Shown piece by piece: positions 9,734 through 60,345 of a stretch of DNA of 64,000 nt. The DNA is taken from the sequence record OR896820.1. One strand, 5' to 3'. Both the position numbers and the translations under genes were made by a program. Positions within the stretch are counted from its first letter, which is position 1. Each line of letters starts with the position of its first letter. The notes beneath the pieces are model-generated. The model saw only the letters and a list, made by a program, of their open reading frames with translations, was not told the origin of the DNA and made no database searches. The DNA is from Escherchia phage Stokescottia.

Positions 9734-9742
9734 TAAAAACAA

Positions 9743-9770
9743 GGAGATCTTCGGGTCTCCTTTTTCTTTG
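9743..9770 (+). terminator. rho-independent terminator after nrdA
   Basis: Hairpin GGAGATC-TTCG-GGTCTCC followed by T-run. Confidence 0.65.
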
Positions 9771-9779
9771 AAATTTTAC

Positions 9780-9809
9780 TTGCTAATCGCTACCAGATTT
9801 GCTATAATA
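9780..9809 (+). promoter_or_regulatory. sigma70-type early promoter
   Basis: TTGCTA 9780-9785, TATAAT 9804-9809. Confidence 0.55.
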
Positions 9810-9839
9810 TTCCTGAAATAGTGAGAAAGAGGAAAATCA

Positions 9840-10985
9840 ATGACTACTTTACTAAACCTGAATTGGGATCATACTAACGCTGACCTTTTCCTGGGAGATT
9901 CTCTCGGTATCGCAGATTATGTACGTGTAGCACATCCAGAACTAGAACGTCTGGCACTTCTGCAACGCTCTCAATTTTGGACTGAAACTGAAATCAGTCT
10001 GGAAGCAGATAAGAAACAATGGCCTAATCTCCCGCGTGAAATTCAGGAAATTACACTCCTGAACTTAGCATGGCAGACTCAAACTGATTCCTTTATCAGT
10101 CGTGCTCCTGAAGCAGCTATTATGCCGCTTGTAAGTCGTCCAGAATTGGAAGGTATGCTCAAGCAGTGGAGCTACTTCGAAGATCTGCATAGTCGTGCTT
10201 ATAGTAATATTATTCGTAATGTACTGACTGATCCAGCAGAATTTATTGATTCTGTAACCAAAAACCAGGAAGCATTCGCACGAATCGCTGATTCTGTTGA
10301 GCTATTTGATGAGCTATATCAGTTAGGTCAGTATTTCATCGCAGTACGTGATCATCGTGGTGACAATACATATCCAGAAACTGAGTTCCCTGAAGTTAAA
10401 CGTGAAACTCAGGCTAAACTATTAGACGCTTACTTTGCGATCTATGGTCTGGAAGCAATGCAGTTCTACGCATCCTTTGCATGTACCTTTGCATTAGCAG
10501 AGAACGATATTCTGCAAGGTATTGCTAAAAATCTGCAATTAATCGCTAAAGATGAAGCTCTGCACACTCAGATGTCCAAAGCAATCATCCAGATTATGTT
10601 CCAGCAGTTTGACAAAGATCTGGTGGATGAAGCAGTGGCTAAAGCACCAGCACAGCTCCTGAAAACTCTGAAAACTGAAATTGAATGGGGTCATTTCATC
10701 TTCAAAGGTCGTAGTCTGATTGGCTTGAATGCAGAACTTCTAGAAGAATATCTGTACTTTGTGGGGCGTAATGCATTTATGCACATCGGTGTAGAATGGC
10801 CTAGTCATTTACCAGTAATCACCAAAAACCCTATTCCGTGGATCATGAACTGGTTGGATACCACTTCTTTACAGCCTGCTCCACAAGAAATCCAGATTGG
10901 TGCAGCATATCGTGTAGGTCAGGTAACTGAGACCTCTACTGATACTCTGAAAGATCTGGGTAATGAATTTGGAGATTTCTTATGA
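9840..10985 (+). CDS. nrdB: ribonucleoside-diphosphate reductase small subunit
   Basis: 381 aa; R2-like acidic/His iron-ligand pattern; immediately downstream of nrdA. Confidence 0.85.
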   Translation: MTTLLNLNWDHTNADLFLGDSLGIADYVRVAHPELERLALLQRSQFWTETEISLEADKKQWPNLPREIQEITLLNLAWQTQTDSFISRAPEAAIMPLVSRPELEGMLKQWSYFEDLHSRAYSNIIRNVLTDPAEFIDSVTKNQEAFARIADSVELFDELYQLGQYFIAVRDHRGDNTYPETEFPEVKRETQAKLLDAYFAIYGLEAMQFYASFACTFALAENDILQGIAKNLQLIAKDEALHTQMSKAIIQIMFQQFDKDLVDEAVAKAPAQLLKTLKTEIEWGHFIFKGRSLIGLNAELLEEYLYFVGRNAFMHIGVEWPSHLPVITKNPIPWIMNWLDTTSLQPAPQEIQIGAAYRVGQVTETSTDTLKDLGNEFGDFL

Positions 10986-37167: not shown

Positions 37168-37919
37168 TGTCAGTATTAGTCGGTTTACATGGTGAAGCTG
37201 GTTCGGGAAAAGATACTGTTGCAAAATTAATTATCGATTGGTGTAATGACACGTATCCAACGTGTTTACCCCGTCGTTACAGTTTTGCTAAGCCCGTTTA
37301 TGAACTTGCATCCGTAATCCTCGGTGTAACTCCAGAGTTTCTAGGAGAGCGCAGGGGAAAAGAGGTTGACCAATGGTTTACAGTCACACAATCTCAATTG
37401 GAGCGAGCCAGAGATGTGTGGTTTAAGTACGGTATCGATAAGTTTGAAGACTTCTCGTACGTTTGGCCTATTTTTGAGGAAAAATATCTTAATCCTCAAC
37501 AACTTATCTCAGAGAATAAAGAAGACGGACTTTATAGTTTATTTATTTCTCCGAGAAAAATGTTACAGCTCGTAGGGACAGAGCTAGGAAGGCAGCTGGT
37601 GCATGAACGCATTTGGCTCATAATTCTGGAGCAATCCATCGCTAAAGACGACCCAGATGTCGCCGTAATAACAGATGTTAGATTCCCCAATGAAGGAGAG
37701 CTACTCAGAGAAACAAACCATTTAGATATGGATTCTTTGATAGTAAATGTAGTACCCGCTGAGCAGAAGTTCACTATTAAATCAGATCATCCATCTGAAA
37801 GTGGTATTCCTGCAAAATATATTACTCACGAATTAGTTAATAAATTCGATGGTATCAATAACCTTAAACTAGAAGTTTATAACTTCTGTGACTTAGAGCT
37901 AGAACCACTAGTTGGATAA
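37167..37919 (+). CDS. deoxynucleoside monophosphate kinase
   Basis: P-loop LHGEAGSGKDT at N-terminus; 250 aa. Confidence 0.65.
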   Translation: MSVLVGLHGEAGSGKDTVAKLIIDWCNDTYPTCLPRRYSFAKPVYELASVILGVTPEFLGERRGKEVDQWFTVTQSQLERARDVWFKYGIDKFEDFSYVWPIFEEKYLNPQQLISENKEDGLYSLFISPRKMLQLVGTELGRQLVHERIWLIILEQSIAKDDPDVAVITDVRFPNEGELLRETNHLDMDSLIVNVVPAEQKFTIKSDHPSESGIPAKYITHELVNKFDGINNLKLEVYNFCDLELEPLVG

Positions 37920-47447: not shown

Positions 47448-47632
47448 TGGAAACACTTTTTCTTTTAATGCTCGTAGGTTCTCTGTTACTAATACTAGCA
47501 CTTCTACTAATCTGCAACATTCTTAATAATAAGAATCTAGAGCTAAAGTGGGAGAATCAAATCCTTAACCGTGAACTTAAACAATATAACATTGCAGCCC
47601 ATAAACTGTTAGACAAACTGGAGAATATATAA
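47447..47632 (+). CDS. membrane protein
   Basis: N-terminal TM helix. Confidence 0.45.
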   Translation: METLFLLMLVGSLLLILALLLICNILNNKNLELKWENQILNRELKQYNIAAHKLLDKLENI

Positions 47633-48246
47633 TGTTTACACAACAACCTATTCAAGTAGTACCGGATCATGAACTGAATACGTGGGATTATAGCTTTAAA
47701 GATTTAACCGCTACTGTACAATTTAAGTCTATGAAGCTAACATTTGCACACAATGACCTTAGAGCATGTAAAGATCTTGAGGATAAGCTCGAAGATGCTC
47801 GTAAGATTTTTGGCAAGGCTCGCATCCCAGCTGATAATCTAATTAACGCATTAATCGATGCAGGGTACAAACTTGTGAAGACTGAGGTGAACCGCCCTAG
47901 TACTCCAGTGACTATTAGAGATCCGTGGCAGTCCGGGACAATCTCAATGCTGAATAACTCCGATAAAAGATTAATGTCGGATATGCACAATGTTCCTTGT
48001 GGGGGTGTGGTAAGTAGTACGCAGTCATATAAGTTTGTGGAAGATTACGGCCCTTCTGTACAGTTGAAACATACTCAAGAAGCTTTTGAATCTGATATGC
48101 GAAGCGTAGCACCTGCGGATGCTGGAGTTTCTAGGAGTTCTGTTTGTACTATTCATTTTAATAATCCTAATAAACATGGAAGTTTAGAAGATGCTATTAT
48201 GGAGGCGTTGGGAGCTGCTATTAATGAAGATAAGAGGGGTAATTAA
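47632..48246 (+). CDS. hypothetical protein
   Basis: ORF track. Confidence 0.5.
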   Translation: MFTQQPIQVVPDHELNTWDYSFKDLTATVQFKSMKLTFAHNDLRACKDLEDKLEDARKIFGKARIPADNLINALIDAGYKLVKTEVNRPSTPVTIRDPWQSGTISMLNNSDKRLMSDMHNVPCGGVVSSTQSYKFVEDYGPSVQLKHTQEAFESDMRSVAPADAGVSRSSVCTIHFNNPNKHGSLEDAIMEALGAAINEDKRGN

Positions 48247-49136
48247 TGGGATTTTATAGTAATAGAAAACCAAAAGGTGTAACTGGTAAATTCGCAGTTG
48301 AAGAAAGACCTTTTCCACCAGTCGATGTAGAGAAACTACGTAAACTTCTAGAAATGCTAGAAGGTTGCCATGAACGTTGTTATTCTGAACTCTCTTTAAA
48401 TGAAAAACGTGTTGTTGAGATGTTCTGTATTCGTTCAGCTAGAACAGCTAAAGGTACTTCTCCAAAAGATGAAGTAAAAGAATACAGAGTTCTAGTGATG
48501 CATGCTTGGGCACAACGTTTTGCAGTTCATTCGCTTCAGGAATGGTTTAATCTTCCTGCATATAAAGATTTCCATGTTTACGAAGATGAAGTTATGAATT
48601 ATAATGAGTTATATGGTTTGTCCTTCAAAAAGACAGGCTCACCGATGCATGATGCACTCAATTCATTCCCTGATCATTACCTTCCAGTTCGTGAATACAG
48701 AGATCGTGAAGGAAATAAACCCTGCTTCACTATTTGGAATAAGTCTAAGACGATATCTGATCTAGATAATTATTGGTTCCGCACAAAAGAAGGATTCCTA
48801 GGAACAGAACCTTTACCTAAGGATCTCAAACCTATCCTTCCTCCTGCGAAACCTAAGCATGAAGTAACGATTGCTATTAATAGAATAATTCTAGGAGCAG
48901 ATGATCTTACTAAACAAATCGCCGCAGTTATCGCAGTTCTGTTTGATGGTACAAATTCTTCTACACGTTATGAGAAGCTAACGGATAACAAATTGCAGAT
49001 ACCTAACGAGTTGTATGAGAGTTCGTGCAAGATCTATGATAACTTTAGTAAAGTAGATTACCCCGTGAGATCCATCAAAGAACTCATGGAGTATGCGGAG
49101 ATGGGGATGAAAGGAAATCTCATGTTCGATGAATAA
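48246..49136 (+). CDS. hypothetical protein
   Basis: 296 aa; last plus-strand gene before the repeat region. Confidence 0.5.
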   Translation: MGFYSNRKPKGVTGKFAVEERPFPPVDVEKLRKLLEMLEGCHERCYSELSLNEKRVVEMFCIRSARTAKGTSPKDEVKEYRVLVMHAWAQRFAVHSLQEWFNLPAYKDFHVYEDEVMNYNELYGLSFKKTGSPMHDALNSFPDHYLPVREYRDREGNKPCFTIWNKSKTISDLDNYWFRTKEGFLGTEPLPKDLKPILPPAKPKHEVTIAINRIILGADDLTKQIAAVIAVLFDGTNSSTRYEKLTDNKLQIPNELYESSCKIYDNFSKVDYPVRSIKELMEYAEMGMKGNLMFDE

Positions 49137-49143
49137 ACTCTAC

Positions 49144-49172
49144 TTGACGTTATGATTTCTGCATGTTATAAT
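49144..49172 (+). promoter_or_regulatory. sigma70-type promoter reading into the repeat region
   Basis: TTGACG 49144-49149, TATAAT 49167-49172. Confidence 0.45.
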
Positions 49173-49508
49173 AACTCTATGAAATAACATAGAATAAAGA
49201 GATCCACCCGGATACGGATGGTGGATGGGAAACTTCTATTTCCCCCGTAGCTTGTCGGAGGGCTAGGGAAATCTTAAGAAGTTTTGTACCATCTCACGCA
49301 ATTCGTATCCCAGGGGTGGAGCATCTCTTCCAATCTTTGGGGATCTTATACTTAAATTAAAGGTAAAACTTTTGACCACATAATTTACATTTAAGATGAT
49401 ACACCGGTTGCCGCCATTCTTCCTAGGATGGCACAACACTTTCTAGTAGACTCCTAAGTTTCTAGGAATAGTTGAACACTAACTCTAGAGTTTACACTAA
49501 ACTTTAAA

Positions 49509-50230
49509 TCGGATTTGCACATGTTCTAGGGCAGTTTTTCACCTACTATAAATACCCTAGGCCGGTTTTCCTATACAGGGCGGTTATTTCTAGGAGACAT
49601 TTTTTGAAAACACATTTCCAGAAATTACTGTCGGATTTGCACATTGTGTTTCTAGAAATTTATGGTCGGATTTGCACAATTGCCTAAGTTTTCATGGACA
49701 CATAATCTCCTGAAAATGGCAGCATTATTTCGGGCCGAAGGCCCATGATTGCCTGAGTTTTTAGAGCCACAGAAATTTTCACTTGTCAAGCTATTTTGCC
49801 CCATTTTGCTAATAAAATTTTACTTTATCTCGCCCCAAGCCCAATTAACCCAAATTATCTCAACTCTTCCCCAAAAACGCAGCAAATCAGGTGCCCCGCA
49901 CCAAATATGCTGCCCCTCTAGCTTCTCCCTCTATTTTCTCTCGCTCTCTCATCTTCTCCCCAAACTCACACAATCACACGCCCTCTCATCGAAGTCACAA
50001 AAATCTTGTCGGATTCGCACATCTTAATCCTAGAAAAACCATGTCGGATTTGCACATACCCCACAGGATTCGAACGCAGTTCGAGATTGCTGGAGTTTTT
50101 GGGAAAATTCATTGTCGGATTTGCACACTATAAAAATTTTTCGGGTCGGATTTGCACACTACCAAAAATTGTCGGATTCGCACATACACGCCCGCACGTA
50201 ACACCCGTGGAGCAATGTCGGATTTGCACA
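49509..50230 (+). repeat. array of nine direct repeats GTCGGATT(T/C)GCACA with irregular spacing
   Basis: Copies at 49509, 49630, 49665, 50008, 50043, 50114, 50145, 50171, 50217; all same orientation. Confidence 0.85.
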
Positions 50231-50233
50231 AAA

Positions 50234-50255
50234 GCGCAGGGCAATTGCCCTGCGC
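50234..50255. repeat. perfect 22-bp palindrome GCGCAGGGCAATTGCCCTGCGC
   Basis: Read directly; immediately follows the last direct repeat. Confidence 0.85.
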
Positions 50256-50470
50256 TAAATACGAATGATAATAAGAATCATTCTCATTTAAAAAGCGGAA
50301 TGAGAATGATAATAATTCGCATTTAGAAAGTGAAACGAGAATCAATCTCATTTAAAAAGTGAAATGATTCTCGTTTAAAAAGCGGAATGAAAATTATTCA
50401 GGAAGTGAAACGATTCTCATTTAGAAAGTGAAATACAAATGAGAATGATTCGCATTTAAGAACGGAAGTG
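50256..50470 (+). repeat. degenerate tandem repeats (~25-30 bp unit, TC[TG]CATTTA[AG]AAAG[CT]G[AG]AA[CT]GA)
   Basis: About seven imperfect units read directly. Confidence 0.75.
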
Positions 50471-50600
50471 AGAAACACTGTTATTTAAGTTATCCACAGA
50501 CTTATTAACAGCACGATTTGACTTGACAAAATTCTAGCCATTTTGAAGCGTTATCAACAGACTTATCCACAACTTATCCTACTGTATAAATATACAGTAT
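50471..50600. repeat. left copy of ~130-bp imperfect inverted repeat with DnaA-box-like motifs and a LexA-box-like palindrome
   Basis: Aligns with the reverse complement of 54490-54620; contains TTATCCACA at 50490 and 50563 and CTGTATAAATATACAG at 50582. Confidence 0.75.
50582..50597. promoter_or_regulatory. LexA-box-like palindrome CTGT-N8-ACAG (also contains TATAAATA)
   Basis: ACTGTATAAATATACAGTA matches the gammaproteobacterial SOS-box consensus TACTGTATATATATACAGTA at 18 of 20 positions. Confidence 0.5.
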
Positions 50601-50965
50601 TCCTACGCAGTGAATAATTCTAATATAGCGTTAAAACGCTCTCAAACGCATTCTAACGCGTTTAATTTTGTTGGGGATACTAAAACAAGGGCAAAATTGG
50701 AGGAGGCTTGAAAATTAGTTAGCCCGCTAACGATCACACAAGGCGACACGTAACACCCTAACCATTAGCAGGCTAACCATCGCGGACGCGGTCAAATGAG
50801 AATGATTATCCTTTGAAAATTGGGGGCACTTCCTGATAGTTGCGCCCCGTGATTATTATAGTAGTGGGCAACCGTTACGCTTTGCCCACTCCCGCCACTC
50901 ATCTTGATGCCTAGACTTGCGACGGCGTACTAAAAACCGCTTGTACCAGTGATTAAACCATCGTT

Positions 50966-51169
50966 TCATAAATCCTCCTCCGGTAGTCGATGCGTGATCT
51001 TCTCCTCTTCCCTGTAGGAGTCTGCCAAATGCTGATAATAACCATCGTGATCATAAATCACTTTATCATACTCGCCACGCTCGACCGCTTGCCGGTTCTC
51101 CGGCGTATCGGGCACGTAAAAAACATCAACCATTGTACTGATTTTGGTTACAACAATTTTATTGCTCAT
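50966..51169 (-). CDS. hypothetical protein
   Basis: ORF track; last gene of the minus-strand cassette. Confidence 0.45.
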   Translation of the reverse strand: MSNKIVVTKISTMVDVFYVPDTPENRQAVERGEYDKVIYDHDGYYQHLADSYREEEKITHRLPEEDL

Positions 51170-51221
51170 AATAACGCTCCGTTACTATATAATCTCATTG
51201 CAATACACCAAAATTATATAG

Positions 51222-51437
51222 TTACTCATATTCTAGCTCGAAAATATCCTCACCATATAATTTGATTAAATCAATTAAATAAAACGCTGTGCCAGTATTA
51301 TTATTTCTTCTTATAAATCTATGATGAGCGTCTTTAAATACATTGAATACATCCCCTATTTTACCTACTCCCCATAAATCCTGTGTTAATTTTACCCGTT
51401 TAACCTTTAGCAACATATTCCAAGTAATTTCACTCAT
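51222..51437 (-). CDS. hypothetical protein
   Basis: ORF track; ATGA overlap with upstream gene. Confidence 0.45.
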   Translation of the reverse strand: MSEITWNMLLKVKRVKLTQDLWGVGKIGDVFNVFKDAHHRFIRRNNNTGTAFYLIDLIKLYGEDIFELEYE

Positions 51438-51778
51438 TGCGCCACCTTTCGAAACGCTGTTTCAATACTATCCGCAGTGGATTGAATATACGCGCCTTTC
51501 ATTATCAGGCGCTCAGTGCATACTTTGCGGAAAATATTAATAAAATCATCTTCATTTTCTGCAATTAATGCTTCACCCATAACTTGAACGTCACAAGATG
51601 CAAAAGTTAAAAATTGAAATGCTAGTTCACGGGCAACGACCGCATTGATTTTATAATGCGCCTTGCCCTCATAAATATTAATAACGCCCTTATAAGCTGG
51701 TGAAAGCTGATTCAAATAGTTTGCTAATAATGCTGGGCGGCAATTAGCAACAAAACGATTGCCCTCATAAATAACCAT
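51434..51778 (-). CDS. hypothetical protein
   Basis: Start at 51778 (MVIYEG). Confidence 0.5.
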   Translation of the reverse strand: MVIYEGNRFVANCRPALLANYLNQLSPAYKGVINIYEGKAHYKINAVVARELAFQFLTFASCDVQVMGEALIAENEDDFINIFRKVCTERLIMKGAYIQSTADSIETAFRKVAQ

Positions 51779-51901
51779 TTGACAGCCTCCCAATTAGATA
51801 GCCAGATAATAACATAAAGATCCCCAACGAAATGGGGTCATTTTTGAATAAGGTGGCGGTAAAACCGCCAACCATTGCAAGGGCAATAACGATAACGCTT
51901 T

Positions 51902-52114
51902 TCATAGTACCCCACGAAACGCAGCGTAAAAGGTGGCAAAGTGTTTAACCGTTTCAGCGATCACGTTGCCGCGCTTATCAAATTTTTTCTCGGTAACACG
52001 AAAGGCATTTTTGTTACGTGCTACATATTCGATTTTACAATCTTCCCGCTCGAACGTGTTAACATCCACCAGCTTAAAGCCTTTCGAACGTGCAAGAGAA
52101 ACGTTGCGGATCAT
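51902..52114 (-). CDS. hypothetical protein
   Basis: ORF track. Confidence 0.45.
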   Translation of the reverse strand: MIRNVSLARSKGFKLVDVNTFEREDCKIEYVARNKNAFRVTEKKFDKRGNVIAETVKHFATFYAAFRGVL

Positions 52115-52116
52115 TT

Positions 52117-52299
52117 TTATTCTCCTTTACTAGTCATGCAGCCCAGCAGATAAGAAAATACAGCAATGCCAGCACCAATAGTAACCATTGGTTTTGTATT
52201 TACTAGACCGCAGTAGGAATCCTGAATACCATAAGCGGTGGCGAAAAGAGTCAAAATAGCGCCCAAGATACCCGCCAGAATAGCTCGAAAAATAACCAT
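52117..52299 (-). CDS. small membrane protein
   Basis: Two hydrophobic helices. Confidence 0.45.
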   Translation of the reverse strand: MVIFRAILAGILGAILTLFATAYGIQDSYCGLVNTKPMVTIGAGIAVFSYLLGCMTSKGE

Positions 52300-52348
52300 T
52301 TGTAATACTCCCCTAGTTAGTGGGGCGAAAGTAACGCCCCGTTATTAA

Positions 52349-52579
52349 TTACATTAAAACAATTTTTGCCGCTTGTTTTTTGGTACAGTGTTCCGCTTTC
52401 AGGGTATCCAGCAAAAAGCCAGCCGTTTGCTGATCGATTTTATCGGCGTTGTATAGTTCTTGGATGGTGTTATAAGTTTTAGCAATGCCGAACTCCTGCA
52501 CCATGTCATGAATGATGACGCGGTTAGACACCCAGCCTTGAGCGGTAAACAGATGACTAGCAGAAGAATAAGCAACCAT
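52349..52579 (-). CDS. hypothetical protein
   Basis: Start at 52579 after RBS GGAGG. Confidence 0.5.
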   Translation of the reverse strand: MVAYSSASHLFTAQGWVSNRVIIHDMVQEFGIAKTYNTIQELYNADKIDQQTAGFLLDTLKAEHCTKKQAAKIVLM

Positions 52580-52684
52580 TTTAAGCCTCCAAATTTTTGG
52601 GAAAATTTTCAATCCACCGTTTTGGTGTAAAGGCATTATAACAAAAAAGGCCGCCATAAAAGGCGACCTTTACAAAACTTTACA

Positions 52685-53179
52685 CTAAACTACCTGTAAG
52701 GATTCAACATTGAAACATCGTTTCAGTTCGTCATGCAAGATAGCATATTCATCCCATCGGGTACTATCAGGAATATAAACAAGCTGTTTTAATCGGTTTG
52801 CGTATATTACCGCTTTATTGCCAATTATTTCCGCGCCACCATGTTTAATAATTAATTTCATGACGGAATTAATAGGATCGCCGCCGTTTACATATGCGCC
52901 GGATTTACTCAATTGATAATGATAAAGGCTTGCATATACGTTTTCATTTTCATACCATTCGCCCGATTCCTCGTCTTCGTAACCATCGCTACCAAAACGA
53001 GAAGCGTTATCAATAGCCATTTCATGAGCGAAAGCGTCCAGATCACAACCAGCGGGAACAAAGTGTTCCTCCGTCCAACCTTCCCCGCAATAGCCAGTAT
53101 GACAATCGACCAAAATGATCATATCATGTTTTGCCGTGCTCACTTCTCCCAGTGAGAAGCCATATTTTTCTTCTGACAT
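52685..53179 (-). CDS. acidic hypothetical protein
   Basis: Start at 53179 after RBS AGGAGG; Cys/His cluster VDCHTGYCGEGW. Confidence 0.55.
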   Translation of the reverse strand: MSEEKYGFSLGEVSTAKHDMIILVDCHTGYCGEGWTEEHFVPAGCDLDAFAHEMAIDNASRFGSDGYEDEESGEWYENENVYASLYHYQLSKSGAYVNGGDPINSVMKLIIKHGGAEIIGNKAVIYANRLKQLVYIPDSTRWDEYAILHDELKRCFNVESLQVV

Positions 53180-53243
53180 AATTAGCCTCCTATTAATTAA
53201 CAAGGGAATAGTAAAGCGGGGAAACAATCCCCGCTAAATATTA

Positions 53244-54230
53244 TTACTCGCTTTCGGTGTTAGTAGTAAAAGTAGAAATATCAATACCTTTCACCATTTC
53301 ATCAATCATTTCAGCAATATTGAAACTCTGTACCATTTCCAACATTGCCGCTTCCATTGCCGCCCCTGCTACCGCTTTCGCCTTTTGGTTAGTCGGGGCG
53401 TACTGGTCAACCGCTACACTCAGCAGGTTAGCGATCACTACACGACCAATCGGCGTATCAATATAACCTTTAATCATAAACGGTGCTTTTTTAGCCGCTA
53501 CTTTCGTGATTTGAGTTAGTGCAATTTTACCCGCTTCCAGTTTTGCAGCGTTTACAACAGCGGATTTATTAGCGGCAACGATGTTAGCAATCTTGGTCAT
53601 GGTGTTTTTTCCTTTGTTTTCAGTAGTTTGAGTGTTAGAATTTACAGCCTGATTTTCAACGTAAATACTTTCTTCTCTTTCGAAAGAGAATCCCGCACTT
53701 TCGACGTCGCCATCATATACATACGGGTATAATTCCGAGGGTAACAAAAAATTACCGTCGCCATCAAAAGCCATTATAGCGGTATATTGAGATCCGTCAT
53801 TATCCGGCTTATACCATCCAGCAGGTAAATACTTCCAGATAACATCTAAAAATCCCTCAATGCTAGAAAGTCCATTTATCAGATCAAGTCCAATAAGCTC
53901 AAAACCATTTATATTAAATGATTGACGGCCTGAATTGCTATGATACGCAACAATATTATTACCCTGCGCAACAATAAAATCGGTATCCGGCCCCGCTCCC
54001 CTGCCTGTAAAGATATGGCAATCCCGATTATATAAAACTAGCGTTGCCCCTTGCTTATATAACGGTAGAAAACTATCCATATCATAGGCGTCATACTCAT
54101 CAAAAAAGTTTTGATGAATAGTTTCAACCTTGTTAATAAAATGTTTAATGCTGGTTGACTTGCTACCGTCCAGCAGGTTGCGCAATGCACCTTTTAAAAC
54201 GGTGGCATTATCAGGTTTAAAAAGCCTCAT
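53244..54230 (-). CDS. hypothetical protein (first gene of cassette)
   Basis: Start at 54230 after RBS GAGGGAGG; ~330 aa with globular N-terminal half and Ala/Lys-rich helical C-terminal half. Confidence 0.55.
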   Translation of the reverse strand: MRLFKPDNATVLKGALRNLLDGSKSTSIKHFINKVETIHQNFFDEYDAYDMDSFLPLYKQGATLVLYNRDCHIFTGRGAGPDTDFIVAQGNNIVAYHSNSGRQSFNINGFELIGLDLINGLSSIEGFLDVIWKYLPAGWYKPDNDGSQYTAIMAFDGDGNFLLPSELYPYVYDGDVESAGFSFEREESIYVENQAVNSNTQTTENKGKNTMTKIANIVAANKSAVVNAAKLEAGKIALTQITKVAAKKAPFMIKGYIDTPIGRVVIANLLSVAVDQYAPTNQKAKAVAGAAMEAAMLEMVQSFNIAEMIDEMVKGIDISTFTTNTESE

Positions 54231-54489
54231 TTGTTCGGCCTCCCTCGTTAATCGGTGAGTGAATGATATAGATATTTGTTCACTAGGGGCAAGAAAAAAG
54301 AAAATGTTTTTTATTCCTTGCCTAGCGCCTAATTTTATGCTAACCGCGCAGCGGTGTAGTAAAGAGCAAAACACGGTGAAGCCACCAGGCCGACGCATTG
54401 AGGCTTTGCTTTAATATTACCTTGCAGCGTTTAGCTCGTTAGAATGCGATTTAGGCCGCTTAAAATTGATTGCAGTCGTTAACACTACC

Positions 54490-54620
54490 TTTTTACCCTG
54501 TATATTTATACAGTAGAATAACCTGTGGATAAGTCTGTGCAAAAGTCCTTATATCGCCGCCTATCGTGTCAAATCTTTTTGTGCTGTGGATAACATTGTG
54601 GATAACTTAAATGATAGTGG
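54490..54620. repeat. right copy of ~130-bp imperfect inverted repeat
   Basis: Reverse complement aligns with 50471-50600; DnaA-box-like 9-mers at 54524, 54585, 54597 and palindrome CTGTATATTTATACAG at 54498. Confidence 0.75.
54498..54513. promoter_or_regulatory. LexA-box-like palindrome upstream of the minus-strand cassette
   Basis: CTGTATATTTATACAGTA; on the minus strand reads CTGTATAAATATACAG about 285 bp upstream of the cassette start. Confidence 0.5.
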
Positions 54621-54639
54621 TTCTCACTTAGGCCGATGG

Positions 54640-54880
54640 TTTCTTATAGTTATTATTTACTGTAGTTATTATTTATTATAATTATTATTTCTCATTAATT
54701 TATATGTATATTATATATTATGTAATAGTTAGTTGGCTAATGAGATTTTCCGTGATTAATAGTCTGCTAATAATTTAATCCGTTACAATCCACCAGCATG
54801 ATTATCATCCTAGCAATTATTAGTCTGCTATTCTTCCAATACACACTAGCAAATAAAAGTCAATTAATTTATTTCATAAA
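54640..54880. other. strongly AT-rich block (possible DNA-unwinding element)
   Basis: Runs of TTATT/ATTAT with almost no G or C; flanked by DnaA-box-like motifs. Confidence 0.5.
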
Positions 54881-54886
54881 ATAAGT

Positions 54887-54923
54887 AGTTATCCACTGGA
54901 AAATAAAAGTCAAGTGGATAACT
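54887..54923. promoter_or_regulatory. palindromic pair of DnaA-box-like motifs (GTTATCCAC-N18-GTGGATAAC)
   Basis: Read directly; operator-like inverted repeat. Confidence 0.55.
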
Positions 54924-55368
54924 AGGAAAATTTCATTTTTGCTTTTGGGGATAAGTTATCAACAAGGCTAGAATGCGCCTAAAACGCTCCAGAACGCAAT
55001 AAAGTTTTTAGCCATCCCATCATAAGGGGATAGGCCGTTTATCGCTACCACGAGCTTTTTAGATTTTGTCAAGTAGGGCAAAGCAAATATAAATGAAAAA
55101 ATTACTTGCCTATCTGCTCTGTTTTGTGGTATTCGCGCGCCCGTTTCTTTTAATTTTAGGCCGTCGCCGGACGTGGTGCGGTGAATTTTGTCTTTACGTT
55201 TCTTTACAAAAATAGGGTTGCGCCATTTTCGGGAATCCCCTATTATTTATCACGTAGGGCGGCAATGACGAACTACACGGCGGGAAGTTTACCGCCGCGC
55301 TCTTTAAAAATTGGGTACATCTTAAAGCCTATCGGCGGTAAACTTATTCATTATAAGGAATCGACGAT

Positions 55369-55572
55369 ATGAAACAAACTTTATTGATCACTGGCAAGCC
55401 TAGCAAGGCACTAGATAGCAAAACAAAAAATTTGTTGACAGTAGCGCAAAGATCGGTAAAATATCGATTCACGCAGTACAAGAAAGGTCGCCAGCAAGGT
55501 TTAGAAATGATCTGGCGAAATATTATGATTGACCTGAAAGAAAATCATAAAAAATCTCAAAAAATTGTTTGA
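55369..55572 (+). CDS. small basic protein
   Basis: ORF track; RBS aggaa. Confidence 0.4.
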   Translation: MKQTLLITGKPSKALDSKTKNLLTVAQRSVKYRFTQYKKGRQQGLEMIWRNIMIDLKENHKKSQKIV

Positions 55573-55800
55573 CACCCTAGCCGATAGGCTTTAAGATGTA
55601 CCCAGTTCGACAAGAGCGATAACTTGATAAAATTTGACGGTCGGCACTTACCATAATGTGTCCCGCCCCCTAACTGGGATATAGCGGCCTACGTGGAGTT
55701 CTTTAAATTGATTATATTGGCGAGCGGATTGTTACTTATTACCTGCTACTTTCTAGCAGGTAATGCGGAACAATCCCCTAAATAACTTGGAGTTTATACT

Positions 55801-56052
55801 ATGCAAAACGTTATTACCGCGCCTAAAATTGGTCAATCCGTCTTCATTCCTTTCGTTACTAAAACGGATGAATTAACCGGAAAAGCCGAACGTATTAAAG
55901 GCGCGGCGCTTATGCCGTTTGATACAATCGACGCGGTATACGCTGAAACGGAACGTAGTAACAACGGCAAACCCGTTTTTAGCGTTCGCGTTAAATCCGG
56001 CGACGTTGTAAAGGTTGTTCAACGTAACGAAAAATGGGAAGCTGTTTTATAA
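55801..56052 (+). CDS. hypothetical protein
   Basis: ORF track; conserved upstream motif and GGAG RBS. Confidence 0.5.
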   Translation: MQNVITAPKIGQSVFIPFVTKTDELTGKAERIKGAALMPFDTIDAVYAETERSNNGKPVFSVRVKSGDVVKVVQRNEKWEAVL

Positions 56053-56150
56053 TCTAGTGTTAACTTTATATCCCCCTTATTTCAGGGGGATATAACGATT
56101 AACATTAAGTTAATCTAATCCCTTAAATTAAACAAACAGGAGTTTATATC

Positions 56151-56558
56151 ATGACTAACGCTAAAACCGCAAAATTTGCATGGAATGAAGAAAACACTCA
56201 AAAAGCTGTTTCCATGTATCAGCAATTAATCAACGAAAACGGTTTAGATTTTGCAAATAGCGACGGCCTGAAAGAGATTGCAAAAGCAGTAGGCGCGGCC
56301 TCCCCCGTATCCGTTCGGTCAAAATTGACCAGTGCAAAAGCCTATCAAAAAAGCGACAAGCCGCGCAAAGTTGGCGGCGGTAGTTCAATCCGCAAGGCTC
56401 ACTATGTGCGCGTTATTGCAAAACACGCTATCGATTCCGGCATTATCAAAGACGCCGACGATCTGGCAAGCCTTGAAAGTGCAAAATTGGAAACACTGGA
56501 CGCTGTAGCGCAATTGTTAGGCGTTGCCGATGAAGTGAAACAGGCCGCAGGGGAATAA
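56151..56558 (+). CDS. pre-early-type small protein (A2-like by size and position)
   Basis: 135 aa directly upstream of the A1-like gene; assignment by synteny and size only. Confidence 0.4.
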   Translation: MTNAKTAKFAWNEENTQKAVSMYQQLINENGLDFANSDGLKEIAKAVGAASPVSVRSKLTSAKAYQKSDKPRKVGGGSSIRKAHYVRVIAKHAIDSGIIKDADDLASLESAKLETLDAVAQLLGVADEVKQAAGE

Positions 56559-56648
56559 TAGTTATATCTTGCCCCCTTCTAGTGAGGGGGCAATAATATA
56601 ACTGTTTAGCGATAGTTATTTTCTTCCCTTAAATCAGGAGTTTTAAAA

Positions 56649-56846
56649 ATGATTTTCTTTCCTACTGAATCCTTAATTCTAGGCTTGTTTATTATGGCGG
56701 CCTCGTTATTGTTCGCTTATTTTCAAAATGATTTAGATTCGTATTATTTTAAACGCAAATCTAAATTGGCAAAGCGTTTAGGTCTGATTTGTTTTATTGC
56801 CGCCGTTGCTTGTGGTGTTAGTTCTAGCCTAGTGCCTTTAAATTAA
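56649..56846 (+). CDS. small membrane protein
   Basis: Two hydrophobic helices. Confidence 0.45.
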   Translation: MIFFPTESLILGLFIMAASLLFAYFQNDLDSYYFKRKSKLAKRLGLICFIAAVACGVSSSLVPLN

Positions 56847-56937
56847 TGTTGCAAATTATAACGCCTATTATTGGAGGCGTTATATTTGGCAATATTGCCA
56901 AAATTGAATTTAATCCCTTTAATGGAGTTTTATTACT

Positions 56938-58608
56938 ATGATTATTTCCGCAGAAAAACAAACCGTTATCCTGAAAATGGCCGCTGATTTCAATTTCTAC
57001 GGTAAACGCCTGCGCGCCACTAAATTGGAAGTTTGTGACGATATTTCGAAAGCGGTATACGATACTACTAAACACTCCACCACTATCTGCGACTGGCTGG
57101 AAGCAAATAAACCAGCGAAACCGAAAGCGGCAAAAGTAGCAAAAGCCATTAAAAACGATGAGCGCCCCGAAGCGGCTGGGATTGTTTCTAGTACCGTGGA
57201 ACAGTGGGAAGTAAAACAAGGTAAACGTTTTATTATTACGTCGATTCAAAATAATACTTTCCCGCATAAAAACTTTTTAGCCGCGCTGGAGCAATATGCT
57301 AAATTTATCGGCGCTGATTTGCTTGTTTCTAAGTATATTTATAATAAAAACGGATTCCAAAATGGGGAAGGTGCTGATGGGATCAAATATGATCCCGCTT
57401 TCGATAAATATATTTGCAGCAAAAACGTGTTTTTAAATAACCGCCGTTTCGCTTTCATGGCTGAAATTAATGTTTTGCCAACCGCAGATTATCCGCTTTC
57501 TGGATTTGCAGAAACTGCAACGGCTTTAAATATCGAGGGTCTGGCAATTGGTCACGCTAAAATCACCGCCGAAAGCGTGCCAGCTTTAAAAGGTGAAGTA
57601 GTGCGCCGTATGTATTCAACCGGAACGGCAACGCTCAAAAACTACATTCAGCAGAAAGCAGGACAGAAAGCGGAAGCACTTCATAATTTTGGCGCGCTTA
57701 TTGTTGAGTTCGACGACGACGGGGAGTTTTTTGTTCGCCAGCTTGAAACAATGGACGAAAGCGGCATGTTTTACGATTTGAATATTTGCGCCACTCCTTC
57801 GGGATGTTTTGAAACGTCGGGGCATGTTTTAGGCTTGCAGTATGGCGATATTCATGCAGAAAAACTAGATGAGGCTTGCGCTCAAGCGTCTTGGGGTCAT
57901 GGTGATACTTATGGGCTTGTGGATATTCTCAAACCGAAATATCAGTTTGTACATGATGTGCATGATTTTACATCCCGCAATCATCATAACCGCGCTTCTG
58001 GTGTATTCCTAGCGAAACAGTACGCCGCCGGACGTGATAAGGTTATTGATGATCTTATCGATACGGGGCGCGTGCTGGAATCAATGGAGCGTGATTTTTC
58101 TCAAACAATCATTGTTGAATCAAATCACGATTTGGCGTTATCCCGTTGGCTGGATGATCGAAATGCTAACATCAAAGACGATCCAGCAAACGCCGAACTA
58201 TATCACAGCCTAAACGCTGCAATCTATGCGGCTATTGCAAAGCAGGACGATACTTTCAACGTGCTAGATTATGCCTTGCGTAAGGTAGCAGGTTGTGAAT
58301 TTAACGCCATTTTCCTGACCACTGACCAATCGTTTAAAATTGCAGGCATTGAATGCGGCGTACACGGTCACAACGGCATAAACGGCAGCCGTGGCAATCC
58401 TAAGCAGTTTAAGAAATTGGGCAAGTTAAACACTGGTCATACTCATACGGCAAGCATTTACGGCGGCGTATATACCGCTGGCGTAGCAGGTAGTCTGGAT
58501 ATGGGTTACAACGTTGGCGCGTCAAGCTGGACGCAAACCCATTTAATTACATACGCAAACGGTCAGCGCACTTTGATTGACTTTAAGAATGGTAAATTCT
58601 TTGCGTAA
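56938..58608 (+). CDS. A1: A1-like pre-early protein with C-terminal metallophosphoesterase domain
   Basis: 556 aa; C-terminal half has GDIHAE, HDVHD, SNHD, GVHGHNG, TGHTHT blocks in calcineurin-like order; size matches what I recall for T5 A1. Confidence 0.55.
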   Translation: MIISAEKQTVILKMAADFNFYGKRLRATKLEVCDDISKAVYDTTKHSTTICDWLEANKPAKPKAAKVAKAIKNDERPEAAGIVSSTVEQWEVKQGKRFIITSIQNNTFPHKNFLAALEQYAKFIGADLLVSKYIYNKNGFQNGEGADGIKYDPAFDKYICSKNVFLNNRRFAFMAEINVLPTADYPLSGFAETATALNIEGLAIGHAKITAESVPALKGEVVRRMYSTGTATLKNYIQQKAGQKAEALHNFGALIVEFDDDGEFFVRQLETMDESGMFYDLNICATPSGCFETSGHVLGLQYGDIHAEKLDEACAQASWGHGDTYGLVDILKPKYQFVHDVHDFTSRNHHNRASGVFLAKQYAAGRDKVIDDLIDTGRVLESMERDFSQTIIVESNHDLALSRWLDDRNANIKDDPANAELYHSLNAAIYAAIAKQDDTFNVLDYALRKVAGCEFNAIFLTTDQSFKIAGIECGVHGHNGINGSRGNPKQFKKLGKLNTGHTHTASIYGGVYTAGVAGSLDMGYNVGASSWTQTHLITYANGQRTLIDFKNGKFFA

Positions 58609-58664
58609 TTAAATTATTACCCTAGCGGCTTGAAATATAGCCGCTATTACAGGAGCTAAATTAA

Positions 58665-58943
58665 ATGGCTATTAAAATTAATCTTCCCAACGTTAAAAAC
58701 ACCGCCGATACATGGTCGATTGATACTATATTGCGCGGCACTGTATACCGCAATTTAAAAGATAATAATTGTTATATTTATCAAAATGAATTAAACGGCC
58801 ACACTTATATAATTGAGTCCGATGGTTTTTGTTCTTTTGAGACTGATTATGAAGCGAAAGATCATATACAGGCAAATGATATTCCTGACGTATGGAAAGA
58901 AACAAATCTCGCTTTTGTTGTAAGTCTTGAAGCTAACAAATAA
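58665..58943 (+). CDS. hypothetical protein
   Basis: ORF track. Confidence 0.45.
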   Translation: MAIKINLPNVKNTADTWSIDTILRGTVYRNLKDNNCYIYQNELNGHTYIIESDGFCSFETDYEAKDHIQANDIPDVWKETNLAFVVSLEANK

Positions 58944-58981
58944 ATTAAATCCCTTATTAAATTAATTGGAGTTTTATAAAT

Positions 58982-59374
58982 ATGAAAAAGCAAAATATTC
59001 CTTTCGATCGCGCTCAATCCTCAATTGTTCTGGTTTATTCTAATGGCGAGCGTTATCACGTCGAGGCAGGGCACGTTATTGATGAATTATTAGACTTCAA
59101 TGACGCTTTACAGGTTACTACCTTTGCCTATACGCAAGGCCGCGCAAGTAGTTACATTAAGGCCGCAGGTGTTTATGTTGATACGGTGAAACAAGAAACG
59201 ATTATCATCGACGCCGTAAAATCCGGCCTTGCCTTTGCAGTTGTCGCGCCTTGCCCCGCTTGCCTCGATGATCACCTAGCGAGCGCAAAGGTATATACCT
59301 GCGCGGGTATTCGTTCCCATGTATCCGGCGAAGATATTAGTTTTATTGCTGATGCATTGGCTTATGGTCTTTAA
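58982..59374 (+). CDS. hypothetical protein
   Basis: ORF track. Confidence 0.5.
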   Translation: MKKQNIPFDRAQSSIVLVYSNGERYHVEAGHVIDELLDFNDALQVTTFAYTQGRASSYIKAAGVYVDTVKQETIIIDAVKSGLAFAVVAPCPACLDDHLASAKVYTCAGIRSHVSGEDISFIADALAYGL

Positions 59375-59453
59375 TAGTTGATTTATTATTGCCCGCTGAT
59401 AAATAGCGGGCAATGCTGAATTAATCTAATCCCTTTAATGGAGAACGTAACAA

Positions 59454-60188
59454 ATGAATAAAGCTATTATTAATTCTTTCCGTAATTTCCCGCATATTTC
59501 CCGCGTCATGATTTGGGATTTAGACGGCACTATCATTAATTCTTTCCATCGTGTAGCGCCTTGCTTTGATAGTGAGGGCAATTTAGATTTAAATAAGTAT
59601 AAAAATGAAGCCTGCAAACATCATTTAATAATGCAAGATACTTTATTGCCATTGGTTGAATATATGCGCCAGTGCATGAATGACGCAAATACTTTAAACA
59701 TTATTTGCACCGCTCGATTGATGAGCAAGTCGGATTACTATTTCTTGCGCAAACAAGGATTGCGAGGGCGTGGAAATAGCAATATCCGCGTGTTTTCCCG
59801 CGATACACTGCACAAATATTTTGAGGCTGATAAAGTTAGCGAAATATACCACAGCAAAGACGCAGTTTATAAATCTTATTACTTTGAGCTATTTAAACAG
59901 CTATATCCGAATGCTGATTTTACAATGATTGACGATCATAAAGGCGTGCTATCAGCGGCGGCATCATACGGGTTTAAAACGCTGGACGCGCAAGCCGTTA
60001 ACGATATTCTATCAATCGGCGTGGCATTGATAGGTGAAACCTTTATCGATGAATCTCTCGACGATGATAATGATTATCAGTTCCTAGCTGATCGCTTGAA
60101 ATTATGTTGGGAAAGTATGACCGAAGAAGAACGCGCAGAATATAGTTGCAGCCCGCAACAATATATTGAGAAATTAAAAGTTGCGTAA
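59454..60188 (+). CDS. dmp: HAD-family phosphatase (5'-deoxyribonucleotidase Dmp-like)
   Basis: N-terminal MIWDLDGTIINS matches HAD motif I; 244 aa in a pre-early-like context; symbol by analogy only. Confidence 0.45.
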   Translation: MNKAIINSFRNFPHISRVMIWDLDGTIINSFHRVAPCFDSEGNLDLNKYKNEACKHHLIMQDTLLPLVEYMRQCMNDANTLNIICTARLMSKSDYYFLRKQGLRGRGNSNIRVFSRDTLHKYFEADKVSEIYHSKDAVYKSYYFELFKQLYPNADFTMIDDHKGVLSAAASYGFKTLDAQAVNDILSIGVALIGETFIDESLDDDNDYQFLADRLKLCWESMTEEERAEYSCSPQQYIEKLKVA

Positions 60189-60201
60189 TAATTAAAGTTG
60201 A

Positions 60202-60239
60202 AATAGTCACGGTGTGTAACGATAACATGCCGTGACTAT
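60202..60239. terminator. palindromic hairpin between convergent genes
   Basis: ATAGTCACGG...CCGTGACTAT inverted repeat. Confidence 0.5.
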
Positions 60240-60345
60240 TAGCTTGCTAAGTACCGGGCGGTAATGAGACTCATTCTCATCTGGGAGGCCACTGGACACA
60301 CCTCCATGTGTAATCTTATGAAATTTGGCAAAAGTCAAATTAGCG

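What the first reader, a model, noticed from the sequence alone, without database searches (positions are those of the whole stretch)
49509..50255. Nine GTCGGATT(T/C)GCACA direct repeats ending in a perfect 22-bp palindrome
A ~750-bp non-coding stretch carries nine same-orientation copies of a 14-bp motif at irregular spacing, followed by GCGCAGGGCAATTGCCCTGCGC. This looks like an iteron or multi-site protein-binding array, as at plasmid/phage origins, partition sites or DNA-injection pause signals. ORF-track ORFs here (49749..50351) look like repeat artefacts. Its position between early genes and the pre-early-like module fits an injection-stop or terminal-repeat boundary, but that is inference.
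Basis: partly seen in the sequence, partly recalled or inferred. Interest (0 to 1): 0.7.

Follow-up and report, generated by a model that had tools for sequence, protein, structure and literature searches.

The report
T5 terminal-repeat boundary repeats (DRD/palJ)
The nine repeats and the palindrome are real, but they are the already-annotated "direct repeat D" copies and "palindrome J" of the injection-stop / terminal-repeat-end region of T5-like phages, a conserved non-coding element whose function has never been tested.

Summary
Observation confirmed: 8 exact and 1 near-exact same-strand copies of GTCGGATTYGCACA lie at 49508-50230, followed by a perfect 22-bp palindrome at 50234-50255. Both are far beyond chance.

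The window is a T5-like phage (Demerecviridae). The array matches, copy for copy, "direct repeat D" 1-9 of the T5 GenBank record AY587007.1. The palindrome is the "palindrome J" homologue, which in T5 carries the mapped 7.9% single-strand nick (CCCTGCGC). The region is Davison's "Repeat Region 3", the published injection-stop region. It is non-coding and lies between convergent pre-early and early genes.

New here: in every genome checked, across three subfamilies, the array forms two same-strand clusters that bracket the right-hand terminal-repeat boundary. T5, BF23 and L6jm share an identical boundary site, which places it at 49763|49764 in the window. The palindrome's symmetry is kept by compensating changes.

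No paper I could read assigns DRD a function. My best inference (about 0.4) is a multi-site protein-binding platform for forming or packaging that genome end. The main rival (about 0.3) is A2 binding to restart DNA transfer.

Novelty: already known. Interest: low to moderate.

The parts
47976..47989 (+). DRD copy 10 homologue (GTCGGATATGCACA, 1 mismatch), inside the ORF019 homologue 47632-48246.
   Evidence: T5 annotates 'direct repeat D copy 10' at 12073 inside ORF019. A copy recurs about 1.7-2.1 kb from the array in many loci.
49508..49521 (+). DRD copy 9 (ATCGGATTTGCACA). Outer cluster, outside the terminal repeat.
   Evidence: The T5 copy 9 has the same G-to-A first base.
49630..49643 (+). 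DRD copy 8. Outer cluster.
49665..49678 (+). DRD copy 7. Outer cluster; its end lies 86 bp before the predicted terminal-repeat boundary.
   Evidence: The same 86-bp distance is seen in T5, BF23 and L6jm.
49732..49744 (.). Hairpin GGGCC-GAA-GGCCC, just outside the terminal repeat. It lies within the most conserved block of the region (49722-49820).
   Evidence: 0.97-1.00 column conservation. IME260 has a different hairpin, CACGGTGTGTCACCGTG, at the same place.
49763..49764 (.). Predicted right-hand terminal-repeat boundary, which is the physical genome end in the right repeat: ...CTGAGTTTTTA | GAGCCACAGAAATTTTCAC. The repeat runs 49764-60298.
   Evidence: Homology to the identical boundary in T5, BF23 and L6jm. 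The other boundary, 60298|60299, comes from the T5 right-repeat junction. Not measured for this phage itself.
49764..50007 (+). C-rich, G-poor tract (G 9%) that fills the repeat-internal part of the gap between the two DRD clusters.
   Evidence: The same compositional property is seen in IME260 and in the 122-kb contig.
50008..50021 (+). DRD copy 6. Inner cluster, inside the terminal repeat.
50043..50056 (+). DRD copy 5. In relatives it sits in one of two positions 10 bp apart (71+35 or 81+25).
50114..50127 (+). DRD copy 4.
50145..50158 (+). DRD copy 3.
50171..50184 (+). DRD copy 2.
50217..50230 (+). DRD copy 1.
50234..50255 (.). Perfect 22-bp palindrome, the homologue of T5 palindrome J. On the minus strand it folds as a 10-bp GC stem followed by UUUUGUG, which is terminator-like.
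   Evidence: compensating substitutions in relatives.: -24.4 kcal/mol, z = -5.
50231..50241 (-). CCCTGCGCTTT, the homologue of T5 'major single-stranded nick 1, 7.9%'.
   Evidence: The extended motif CCCTGCGCTYT occurs only here and at 37346-37356 (minus strand), which matches T5 nick 2.
50264..50480 (.). A/T-rich repeats and palindromes of the GAGAATGATTCTCATTTAAAAAG type, equivalent to T5 DRC / palE-I. The T5 shear point, calculated at about 9618, falls in the equivalent stretch.
   Evidence: D1, D4, I1-I4.
50489..50598 (.). Two pairs of DnaA boxes, each pair 3 bp apart: TTATCCACA 50490-98 with TTATTAACA 50502-10, and TTATCAACA 50551-59 with TTATCCACA 50563-71. Also the palindrome CTGTATAAATATACAG at 50582-97. 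Equivalent to T5 IRC'-spacer-IRD' and palD, which is Davison's iss candidate.
   Evidence: (D11). The same layout is present in Vibrio phage Gary.

Best explanation
SHOWN. This is the right-hand end of the long terminal repeat of a T5-like phage. The nine repeats are T5 'direct repeat D' (DRD) copies 1-9. The palindrome is the palJ homologue and carries the conserved nick-site motif.

INFERRED. DRD is an asymmetric binding site for one sequence-specific DNA-binding protein. Its extended form is AAA-N4-T-GTCGGATTYGCACA. The sites are arranged in two same-orientation clusters that bracket a precisely conserved DNA end.

MOST LIKELY ROLE. The array is the recognition platform on which the end-forming machinery, terminase with an accessory or small subunit, assembles on concatemeric DNA. 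That machinery would cut at ...TTTTTA|GAGCCACAG and start packaging. It would work in the way lambda cosB R-sites or SPP1 pacL/pacR flank their cut sites.

DIRECTION. T5 injects its left end first, so the right end, meaning this boundary, should be the end that is packaged first.

THE PALINDROME. It is a separate unit: a hairpin and terminator that closes the pre-early operon running towards it and also holds the 7.9% nick site.

CONFIDENCE BY STEP. Identity with T5 DRD/palJ about 0.98. Protein-binding array about 0.8. Terminus or packaging role about 0.4.
For: Identity with T5:
- The motif is identical and the copies correspond one for one, with matching spacings.

Architecture:
- All copies are on one strand in 49 of 49 multi-copy loci, with conserved spacings.
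- The core TCGNATTYGCAC persists in Sugarlandvirus, in a 122-kb divergent contig, and in a Vibrio phage of another subfamily whose Dmp is only about 39% identical.
- An A-tract at positions -7 to -5, outside the positions I selected on, is conserved at 70-77%.

Boundary bracketing:
- The annotated or deduced repeat end falls between the two clusters in T5, BF23, L6jm, Stitch, Kenya-K18, saus132, chee24, IME260, the 122-kb contig and Gary.
- The site is identical in T5, BF23 and L6jm. BF23's ends were determined with PhageTerm.
- The 100 bp around the boundary is the most conserved part of the region, at 0.97-1.00.

Not a transcription-control or coding region:
- The flanking genes converge on it, there is no strong promoter in the array, and there is no coding signal or Rfam match.

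Outer copies:
- Copies 7-9 lie outside the repeat, so a role confined to the first-step-transfer DNA cannot explain them.
Against: - No experiment links DRD to any protein or process.
- No T5 pac or cos site has been defined in the literature I could search.
- The inner cluster extends 470 bp from the cut, and a tenth copy lies about 1.8 kb away inside a gene. Both are further than classical terminase sites.
- The inner cluster directly follows the nick and the mapped shear point, so a role in DNA transfer fits equally well.
- Several deposited boundaries differ in position within the gap (Kenya-K18, saus132, chee24).
- The method used to determine Gary's ends is unknown.
- Packaging direction is inferred from the general 'last in, first out' rule, not shown for T5.
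- Within close relatives the DRD columns are only slightly more conserved than the spacers (0.92 against 0.86).
Confidence: 0.4

Rival explanations
1. DRD copies are the binding sites, or cleavage guides, of the essential pre-early DNA-binding protein A2, alone or together with A1. After the pause, A2 made from the first-step DNA loads on the array that lies immediately beyond the stall point. It then pulls or releases the DNA so that second-step transfer starts. A variant of this is Davison's model, in which A1/A2 cleave to the right of iss in both repeats.
For: - The array begins 4-50 bp beyond the nick and the calculated shear point (T5 9618 and 9661-9668, against DRD1 at 9672).
- A2 is essential, binds DNA, and its target and mechanism are unknown as of 2026.
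- A2 and DRD are both conserved across the family, including in Vibrio phage Gary (A2 42% identical; DRD).
- The single orientation suits a polar entry process.
- Copies 1-6 are present in both repeats, as Davison's cleavage model requires.
Against: - Sequence specificity of A2 has not been shown.
- The A2 model is confident (pLDDT 85) but has no significant structural match, only weak Myb/HTH-like hints.
- This reading does not explain why the repeat boundary is bracketed so consistently, or why the boundary block is the most conserved part.
- A 750-bp array cannot by itself drive entry of 110 kb.
Confidence: 0.3
2. The DRD array is itself part of the injection stop signal. A host envelope protein or a virion protein bound to the repeats arrests the DNA at about 8%.
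For: - It lies within the published iss region.
- The first-step length is known only approximately, so the stall could lie within the array.
Against: [quoted passage not shown]
- Three to four copies lie outside the repeat, beyond any plausible stall position.
- DNA inside the tail tube cannot be reached by host proteins.
Confidence: 0.1
3. The region is an iteron-type replication origin. DRD copies are the iterons for a phage initiator, next to DnaA boxes and A/T-rich repeats.
For: It looks like an origin: same-strand repeats, two pairs of DnaA boxes and A/T-rich repeats within 1.1 kb.
Against: - Spacing is irregular (26-343 bp) rather than tandem and phased.
- No initiator-like gene is adjacent.
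- Davison cites mapping of T5 origins near the genome centre, and the replication genes are not expressed during the first step.
- DRD is not a DnaA box. ATTTGCACA has 1-2 mismatches to TTWTNCACA, and its last base is C in Gary.
Confidence: 0.1

Closest known systems
Bacteriophage T5 'direct repeat D' copies 1-10, 'palindrome J' and 'major nick 1 (7.9%)' in the left terminal repeat. Annotated in GenBank AY587007.1; the region is called Repeat Region 3 or the iss region by Davison (bioRxiv 10.1101/866236).
   Same: - Identical 14-bp motif.
- Same number and order of copies, and nearly the same spacings.
- Same flanking elements (DRC repeats, paired DnaA boxes, early ORF018/019).
- Same boundary sequence.
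- Same nick motif.
   Different: - The window's palindrome is a perfect 22-mer, whereas T5's palJ is an imperfect 17-mer.
- DRD5 is shifted by 10 bp (71+35 instead of 81+25).
- DRD10 has one mismatch.
- The window holds a single collapsed copy of the repeat.
Terminase recognition sites that flank a cut site: lambda cosB R-sites, and SPP1 pacL/pacR around pacC. Cited from established knowledge, not tested here.
   Same: Several short same-sense protein-binding repeats on both sides of a precisely placed DNA end, lying in a non-coding stretch.
   Different: - No binding protein is known.
- The clusters are further from the cut (86 and 245 bp) and more spread out.
- T5 makes 10-kb direct terminal repeats, so a second, different cut site at 60298|60299 has no DRD copies nearby.
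Arrays of short repeats next to the T7 terminal repetition at the concatemer junction. Recalled from Dunn and Studier 1983, from memory and not checked here.
   Same: Short repeat arrays adjoin the boundary of a direct terminal repeat. A hairpin lies next to the boundary.
   Different: - Unrelated sequence.
- The T7 repeat is 160 bp.
- The function of those arrays is also unsettled.
Plasmid or phage iteron origins, and parC-type centromeres.
   Same: Same-orientation repeats in two clusters, with DnaA boxes nearby.
   Different: - Irregular spacing.
- No adjacent Rep or Par genes.
- Located at a genome end.

Membership tests
T5 (Demerecviridae) DRD / palJ / Repeat Region 3 | Motif TGTGCRAATCCGAC(A) in about nine same-strand copies. 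| tested here: met
   identical motif, 9 copies plus 1.
T5 (Demerecviridae) DRD / palJ / Repeat Region 3 | Lies in the large untranslated stretch between the rightmost pre-early ORFs and the first early ORFs, spanning the end of the left terminal repeat. | tested here: met
T5 (Demerecviridae) DRD / palJ / Repeat Region 3 | Element order: DnaA-box inverted repeats, DRC repeats, palJ with nick, DRD1-6, repeat end, DRD7-9. | tested here: met
T5 (Demerecviridae) DRD / palJ / Repeat Region 3 | A physical single-strand nick at CCCTGCGC within palJ. | not testable with these tools
   The motif is present on the homologous strand. The nick itself requires virion DNA.
T5 (Demerecviridae) DRD / palJ / Repeat Region 3 | DNA transfer pauses here (two-step injection). 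| not testable with these tools
   Only the homology of A1, A2 and the region is shown.
Terminase recognition (pac/cos-type) site | Lies at the position where the mature genome end is made. | tested here: met
   By homology to determined ends in T5, BF23 and L6jm. Not measured for this phage.
Terminase recognition (pac/cos-type) site | Bound by the small terminase or an accessory protein, and required for packaging. | not testable with these tools
   No binding or packaging data exist in the searched literature.
Iteron-type replication origin | Tandem, regularly phased iterons. | tested here: not met
   Spacings are 26, 31, 35, 46, 71, 122 and 343 bp. Helical phases are mixed.
Iteron-type replication origin | An adjacent initiator gene. 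| tested here: inconclusive
   The neighbouring ORFs belong to families of unknown function.
DnaA-box cluster | 9-mer matching TT(A/T)TNCACA. | tested here: not met
   For DRD: ATTTGCACA and ATTCGCACA have 1-2 mismatches, and Gary has ...GCACC. True DnaA boxes lie 260-340 bp further on, at 50490-50571.
Rho-independent terminator (palindrome only) | GC-rich stem-loop followed by a U-tract. | tested here: met
   Minus strand: 10-bp stem, AAUU loop, UUUUGUG, -24.4 kcal/mol. The stem covaries in relatives. The simple consensus scan did not list it. Termination itself is untested.

The most novel reading that the evidence does not exclude
The DRD array is the missing cis-element of one of two unsolved T5 processes. 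Either it is the first defined recognition site for terminase on a phage with long direct terminal repeats, or it is the specific target of the essential protein A2 that restarts DNA transfer after the pause. The family-wide bracketing of the repeat boundary, which I did not find stated in the papers I could read, would then be the key to how these phages set their genome end next to their injection stop.
Probability: 0.35. Interest if true: 0.6.

Novelty: already known. Interest (0 to 1): 0.3.

Why it matters
T5's two-step DNA injection has had no mechanism for more than fifty years. How phages with 10-kb direct terminal repeats define their ends is also unknown. This array lies exactly where both processes happen, and it is one of the most deeply conserved non-coding elements of the family. 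Mutating it in phages that can now be engineered, or testing it against A2 and terminase, would be a direct way into both questions. As a sequence feature, though, it adds nothing new: it was sequenced in 1987 and annotated in 2005.

Tried and rejected
- Rfam scan of 48800-51200: one sub-threshold chance hit.
- PHROG and Pfam on the internal ORFs: no matches.
- Promoter scan: no strong promoter inside the array.
- DRD as a DnaA box: rejected.
- DRD as the nickase recognition site: rejected. T5 nicks 2 and 3 share CCCTGCGCTYT but have no DRD nearby.
- Conservation footprint among 20 Markadamsvirinae: only weakly discriminating, because the whole region is conserved.
- Shared motif at the two repeat boundaries (GAGCCACAG against GAGGCCACTGG): too weak, and not conserved in T5.
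- A2 structure prediction and Foldseek: confident model, but no significant match.
- PDB sequence search for A2: nothing.
- Davison's 2015 review and the preprint's supplements are not held.
- No T5 packaging-site literature found.
- The 2026 deletion mutants stop short of the region.

Full report
1. THE OBSERVATION

- GTCGGATTYGCACA has eight exact + strand copies between 49630 and 50230.
- A ninth copy at 49508 has A in place of the first G.
- With up to two mismatches the window holds 11 matches against 0.48 expected, and none of 100 shuffles reached that number.
- Start-to-start spacings are 122, 35, 343, 35, 71, 31, 26 and 46 bp.
- The 22-bp palindrome at 50234-50255 is perfect and unique. 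It extends to 24 bp.
- A tenth, 1-mismatch copy lies at 47976 inside ORF 47632-48246.

2. WHAT THE WINDOW IS

The region matches hundreds of T5-like phages (Demerecviridae) at 74-95% identity. In records that begin at the physical left end, the match lies 7-10 kb from that end.

Gene context:
- Upstream, + strand genes end at 49136. These are the homologues of T5 early ORF019 and ORF018.
- Downstream, minus strand small genes run towards the region.
- Further on are the homologues of A2 (56151-56558), A1 (56938-58608) and dmp (59454-60188).
- The 1.8-kb gap therefore lies between convergent transcription units. It has no strong promoter in the array, no Rfam match, and no PHROG family for its ORFs.
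- The four larger internal ORFs are intact in only 1-7 of 19 relatives. A 50-aa ORF in the near-invariant boundary block is the only exception.

3. IT IS ALREADY DESCRIBED

The T5 GenBank record AY587007.1 annotates the following:
- 'direct repeat D' copies 1-9 at 9672-10409, and copy 10 at 12073.
- 'palindrome J' at 9650-9666.
- 'major single-stranded nick 1, 7.9%' at 9661-9668.
- The end of the left terminal repeat at 10139.

The copies correspond one for one:
- Window 50217 is DRD1, and so on down to 49508, which is DRD9.
- Window 47976 is DRD10.

Davison's preprint calls this stretch 'Repeat Region 3'.
- He states that the order of elements is conserved in T5-like phages.
- He attributes the injection stop signal to the DnaA-box inverted repeats and the DRE repeats, which lie to the left of a calculated shear point at about 9618.
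- He gives DRD no function.

[quoted passage not shown] Its engineered deletions stop at gene 017, so the region has never been tested.

4. COMPARATIVE ANATOMY

An exact-motif scan of IMG/VR found multi-copy arrays only on contigs of about 95-123 kb.

Architecture across loci:
- In 49 of 49 loci with at least three copies, all copies share one strand.
- The spacing pattern is 46/26/31, then 81+25 or 71+35, then about 343, then 35, then about 122-137. A further copy lies about 1.7-2.1 kb away.

The unbiased flanks show a conserved A-tract at positions -7 to -5 and a T at position 0. This gives the extended site AAA-N4-T-GTCGGATTYGCACA.

The motif survives where the surrounding sequence no longer aligns:
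- Klebsiella phage IME260, a Sugarlandvirus, has 11 copies.
- A divergent 122-kb contig has 8 copies.
- Vibrio phage Gary (Ermolyevavirinae, Dmp about 39% identical) has ATCGNATTYGCACC copies. These are followed by a GCGCAGG element, short tandem repeats and paired TTATCCACA boxes, in the same order as the window.

Within close relatives the whole region is constrained. DRD columns average 0.92 conservation and the other columns 0.86.

5. THE ARRAY BRACKETS THE TERMINAL-REPEAT BOUNDARY

- T5, BF23 (PhageTerm-determined) and L6jm share an identical boundary...CTGTGG(A/C)TC | TAAAAACTCAGGCAATCA. It lies 86 bp before DRD7 and about 245 bp after DRD6.
- Stitch differs by 5 bp and IME260 by 20 bp.
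- Kenya-K18, saus132 and chee24 are annotated at other positions, but still within the same gap.
- In the 122-kb contig the repeat end follows a block homologous to T5's (GGGGGCAAAA..TTGACAA.TGAAAA..|(T)AAAAAC). It is 365 bp after the start of the last inner copy and 246 bp before the outer cluster.
- In Gary, DRD-like copies lie at -279, -141 and -50, and at +7 to +220, relative to the repeat start.

In the window the boundary maps to 49763|49764. The other boundary maps to 60298|60299, which gives a single collapsed repeat of 10,535 bp.

The block 49722-49820 holds a GGGCCGAAGGCCC hairpin and the boundary. It is the most conserved part of the region, at 0.97-1.00. The repeat-internal part of the gap is a C-rich tract with only 9% G.

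6. THE PALINDROME IS A SEPARATE UNIT

Nick site:
- T5's three annotated nick sites in the stretches I fetched all read CCCTGCGCT(Y)T.
- In the window that extended motif occurs exactly twice, both times on the minus strand. One is at 50231-50241, in the DRD-proximal arm of the palindrome.
- The other is at 37346-37356. Its flanks are nearly identical to those of T5 nick 2.

Dyad symmetry:
- In relatives the nick-side arm is nearly invariant.
- The far arm changes with compensating substitutions (GCAGAGCAATTGCTCTGC; GGGGGGCAATTGCCCCC), or the loop lengthens while the stem is kept.
- The symmetry is therefore under selection.

Terminator-like fold:
- As minus strand RNA it forms a 10-bp GC stem followed by UUUUGUG (-24.4 kcal/mol, z = -5).
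- This resembles an intrinsic terminator for the pre-early operon that runs towards it.

7. MECHANISM

Shown:
- Identity with T5 DRD and palJ.
- The region is non-coding.
- The motif is deeply conserved.
- All copies are on one strand.
- The array brackets the boundary.

Inferred: DRD is a binding site for one protein.

My preferred role, at about 0.4, is a recognition platform for forming this genome end and starting packaging.
- The clusters flank a precisely conserved cut.
- The outer copies lie outside the repeat.
- The end that is injected last should be the end that is packaged first.

The main rival, at about 0.3, is that A2, or A1 with A2, binds the array to restart transfer.
- The array begins immediately beyond the nick and the shear point.
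- A2 is an essential DNA-binding protein with no known target.
- The A2 model is confident (pLDDT 85) and all-helical, but it has no significant structural match.

An origin-iteron reading and a stop-signal reading are each about 0.1. DRD is not a DnaA box.

8. VERDICT

The element is already known and named, and its function is open.

Noticed in passing
window 37346-37356 (minus strand): CCCTGCGCTCT lies here, with flanks nearly identical to T5 'major nick 2, 18.3%' inside the dnk gene. The extended nick motif CCCTGCGCTYT occurs only twice in 64 kb, both times on the strand homologous to T5's nicked strand.
   Followed up: partly
window 50248-50255 (+) and 53962-53969 (+): Two further CCCTGCGC 8-mers lie on the opposite strand, one of them in the far arm of the perfect palindrome. 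They lack the TYT extension. If the nickase read only the 8-mer, the perfect palindrome would be nicked on both strands.
   Followed up: partly
window 49764-50007: A 244-bp C-rich, G-poor tract (G 9%) forms the extreme end of the terminal repeat. The 3'-ending strand at the right genome end would therefore be purine- and G-rich. The same property appears in IME260 and in a divergent 122-kb contig, even though the sequences differ.
   Followed up: partly
window 49732-49744: The invariant hairpin GGGCC-GAA-GGCCC lies 19 bp outside the repeat boundary and has no adjacent U-tract. IME260 has a different hairpin (CACGGTGTGTCACCGTG) at the same place. This suggests the structure rather than the sequence is conserved, which is reminiscent of hairpin intermediates proposed for T7 end formation (from memory).
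   Followed up: partly
window 49679-49693 and 49748-49762: The sequence just before the repeat boundary (ATTGCCTGAGTTTTT) is repeated 69 bp upstream, directly after DRD7 (ATTGCCTAAGTTTTC).
   Followed up: no
window 50043 (DRD5); loci L002-L101: DRD5 occupies one of two positions exactly 10 bp apart in different phages (spacings 71+35 or 81+25, always summing to 106). That is one helical turn, which hints at a constraint on helical phase.
   Followed up: partly
window 50267-50320, 50792-50816, 60060-60084: The A/T-rich DRC-type repeats resemble the E. coli Fur box: 16/19 and 15/19 matches to GATAATGATAATCATTATC at 50267 and 50302, with GAGAAT-N-ATTCTC cores. The Fur consensus is recalled from memory. 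This may only reflect A/T-rich symmetry.
   Followed up: partly
window 47976-47989 in ORF 47632-48246: A DRD copy sits inside the coding sequence of the ORF019 homologue (phrog_5271, function unknown). It recurs at about 1.7-2.1 kb from the array in many relatives. I did not test whether it is kept by the protein sequence or for its own sake.
   Followed up: partly
window 49764-60298: The window contains one collapsed copy of a roughly 10.5-kb terminal repeat joined on both sides to unique sequence. The source assembly is therefore circularised or permuted rather than starting at a physical end.
   Followed up: yes
window 49652-49804 (minus strand): A 50-aa ORF crossing the repeat boundary stays open in 14 of 19 relatives. 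It has no PHROG family, and the open frame is most simply explained by the near-invariance of this block.
   Followed up: partly
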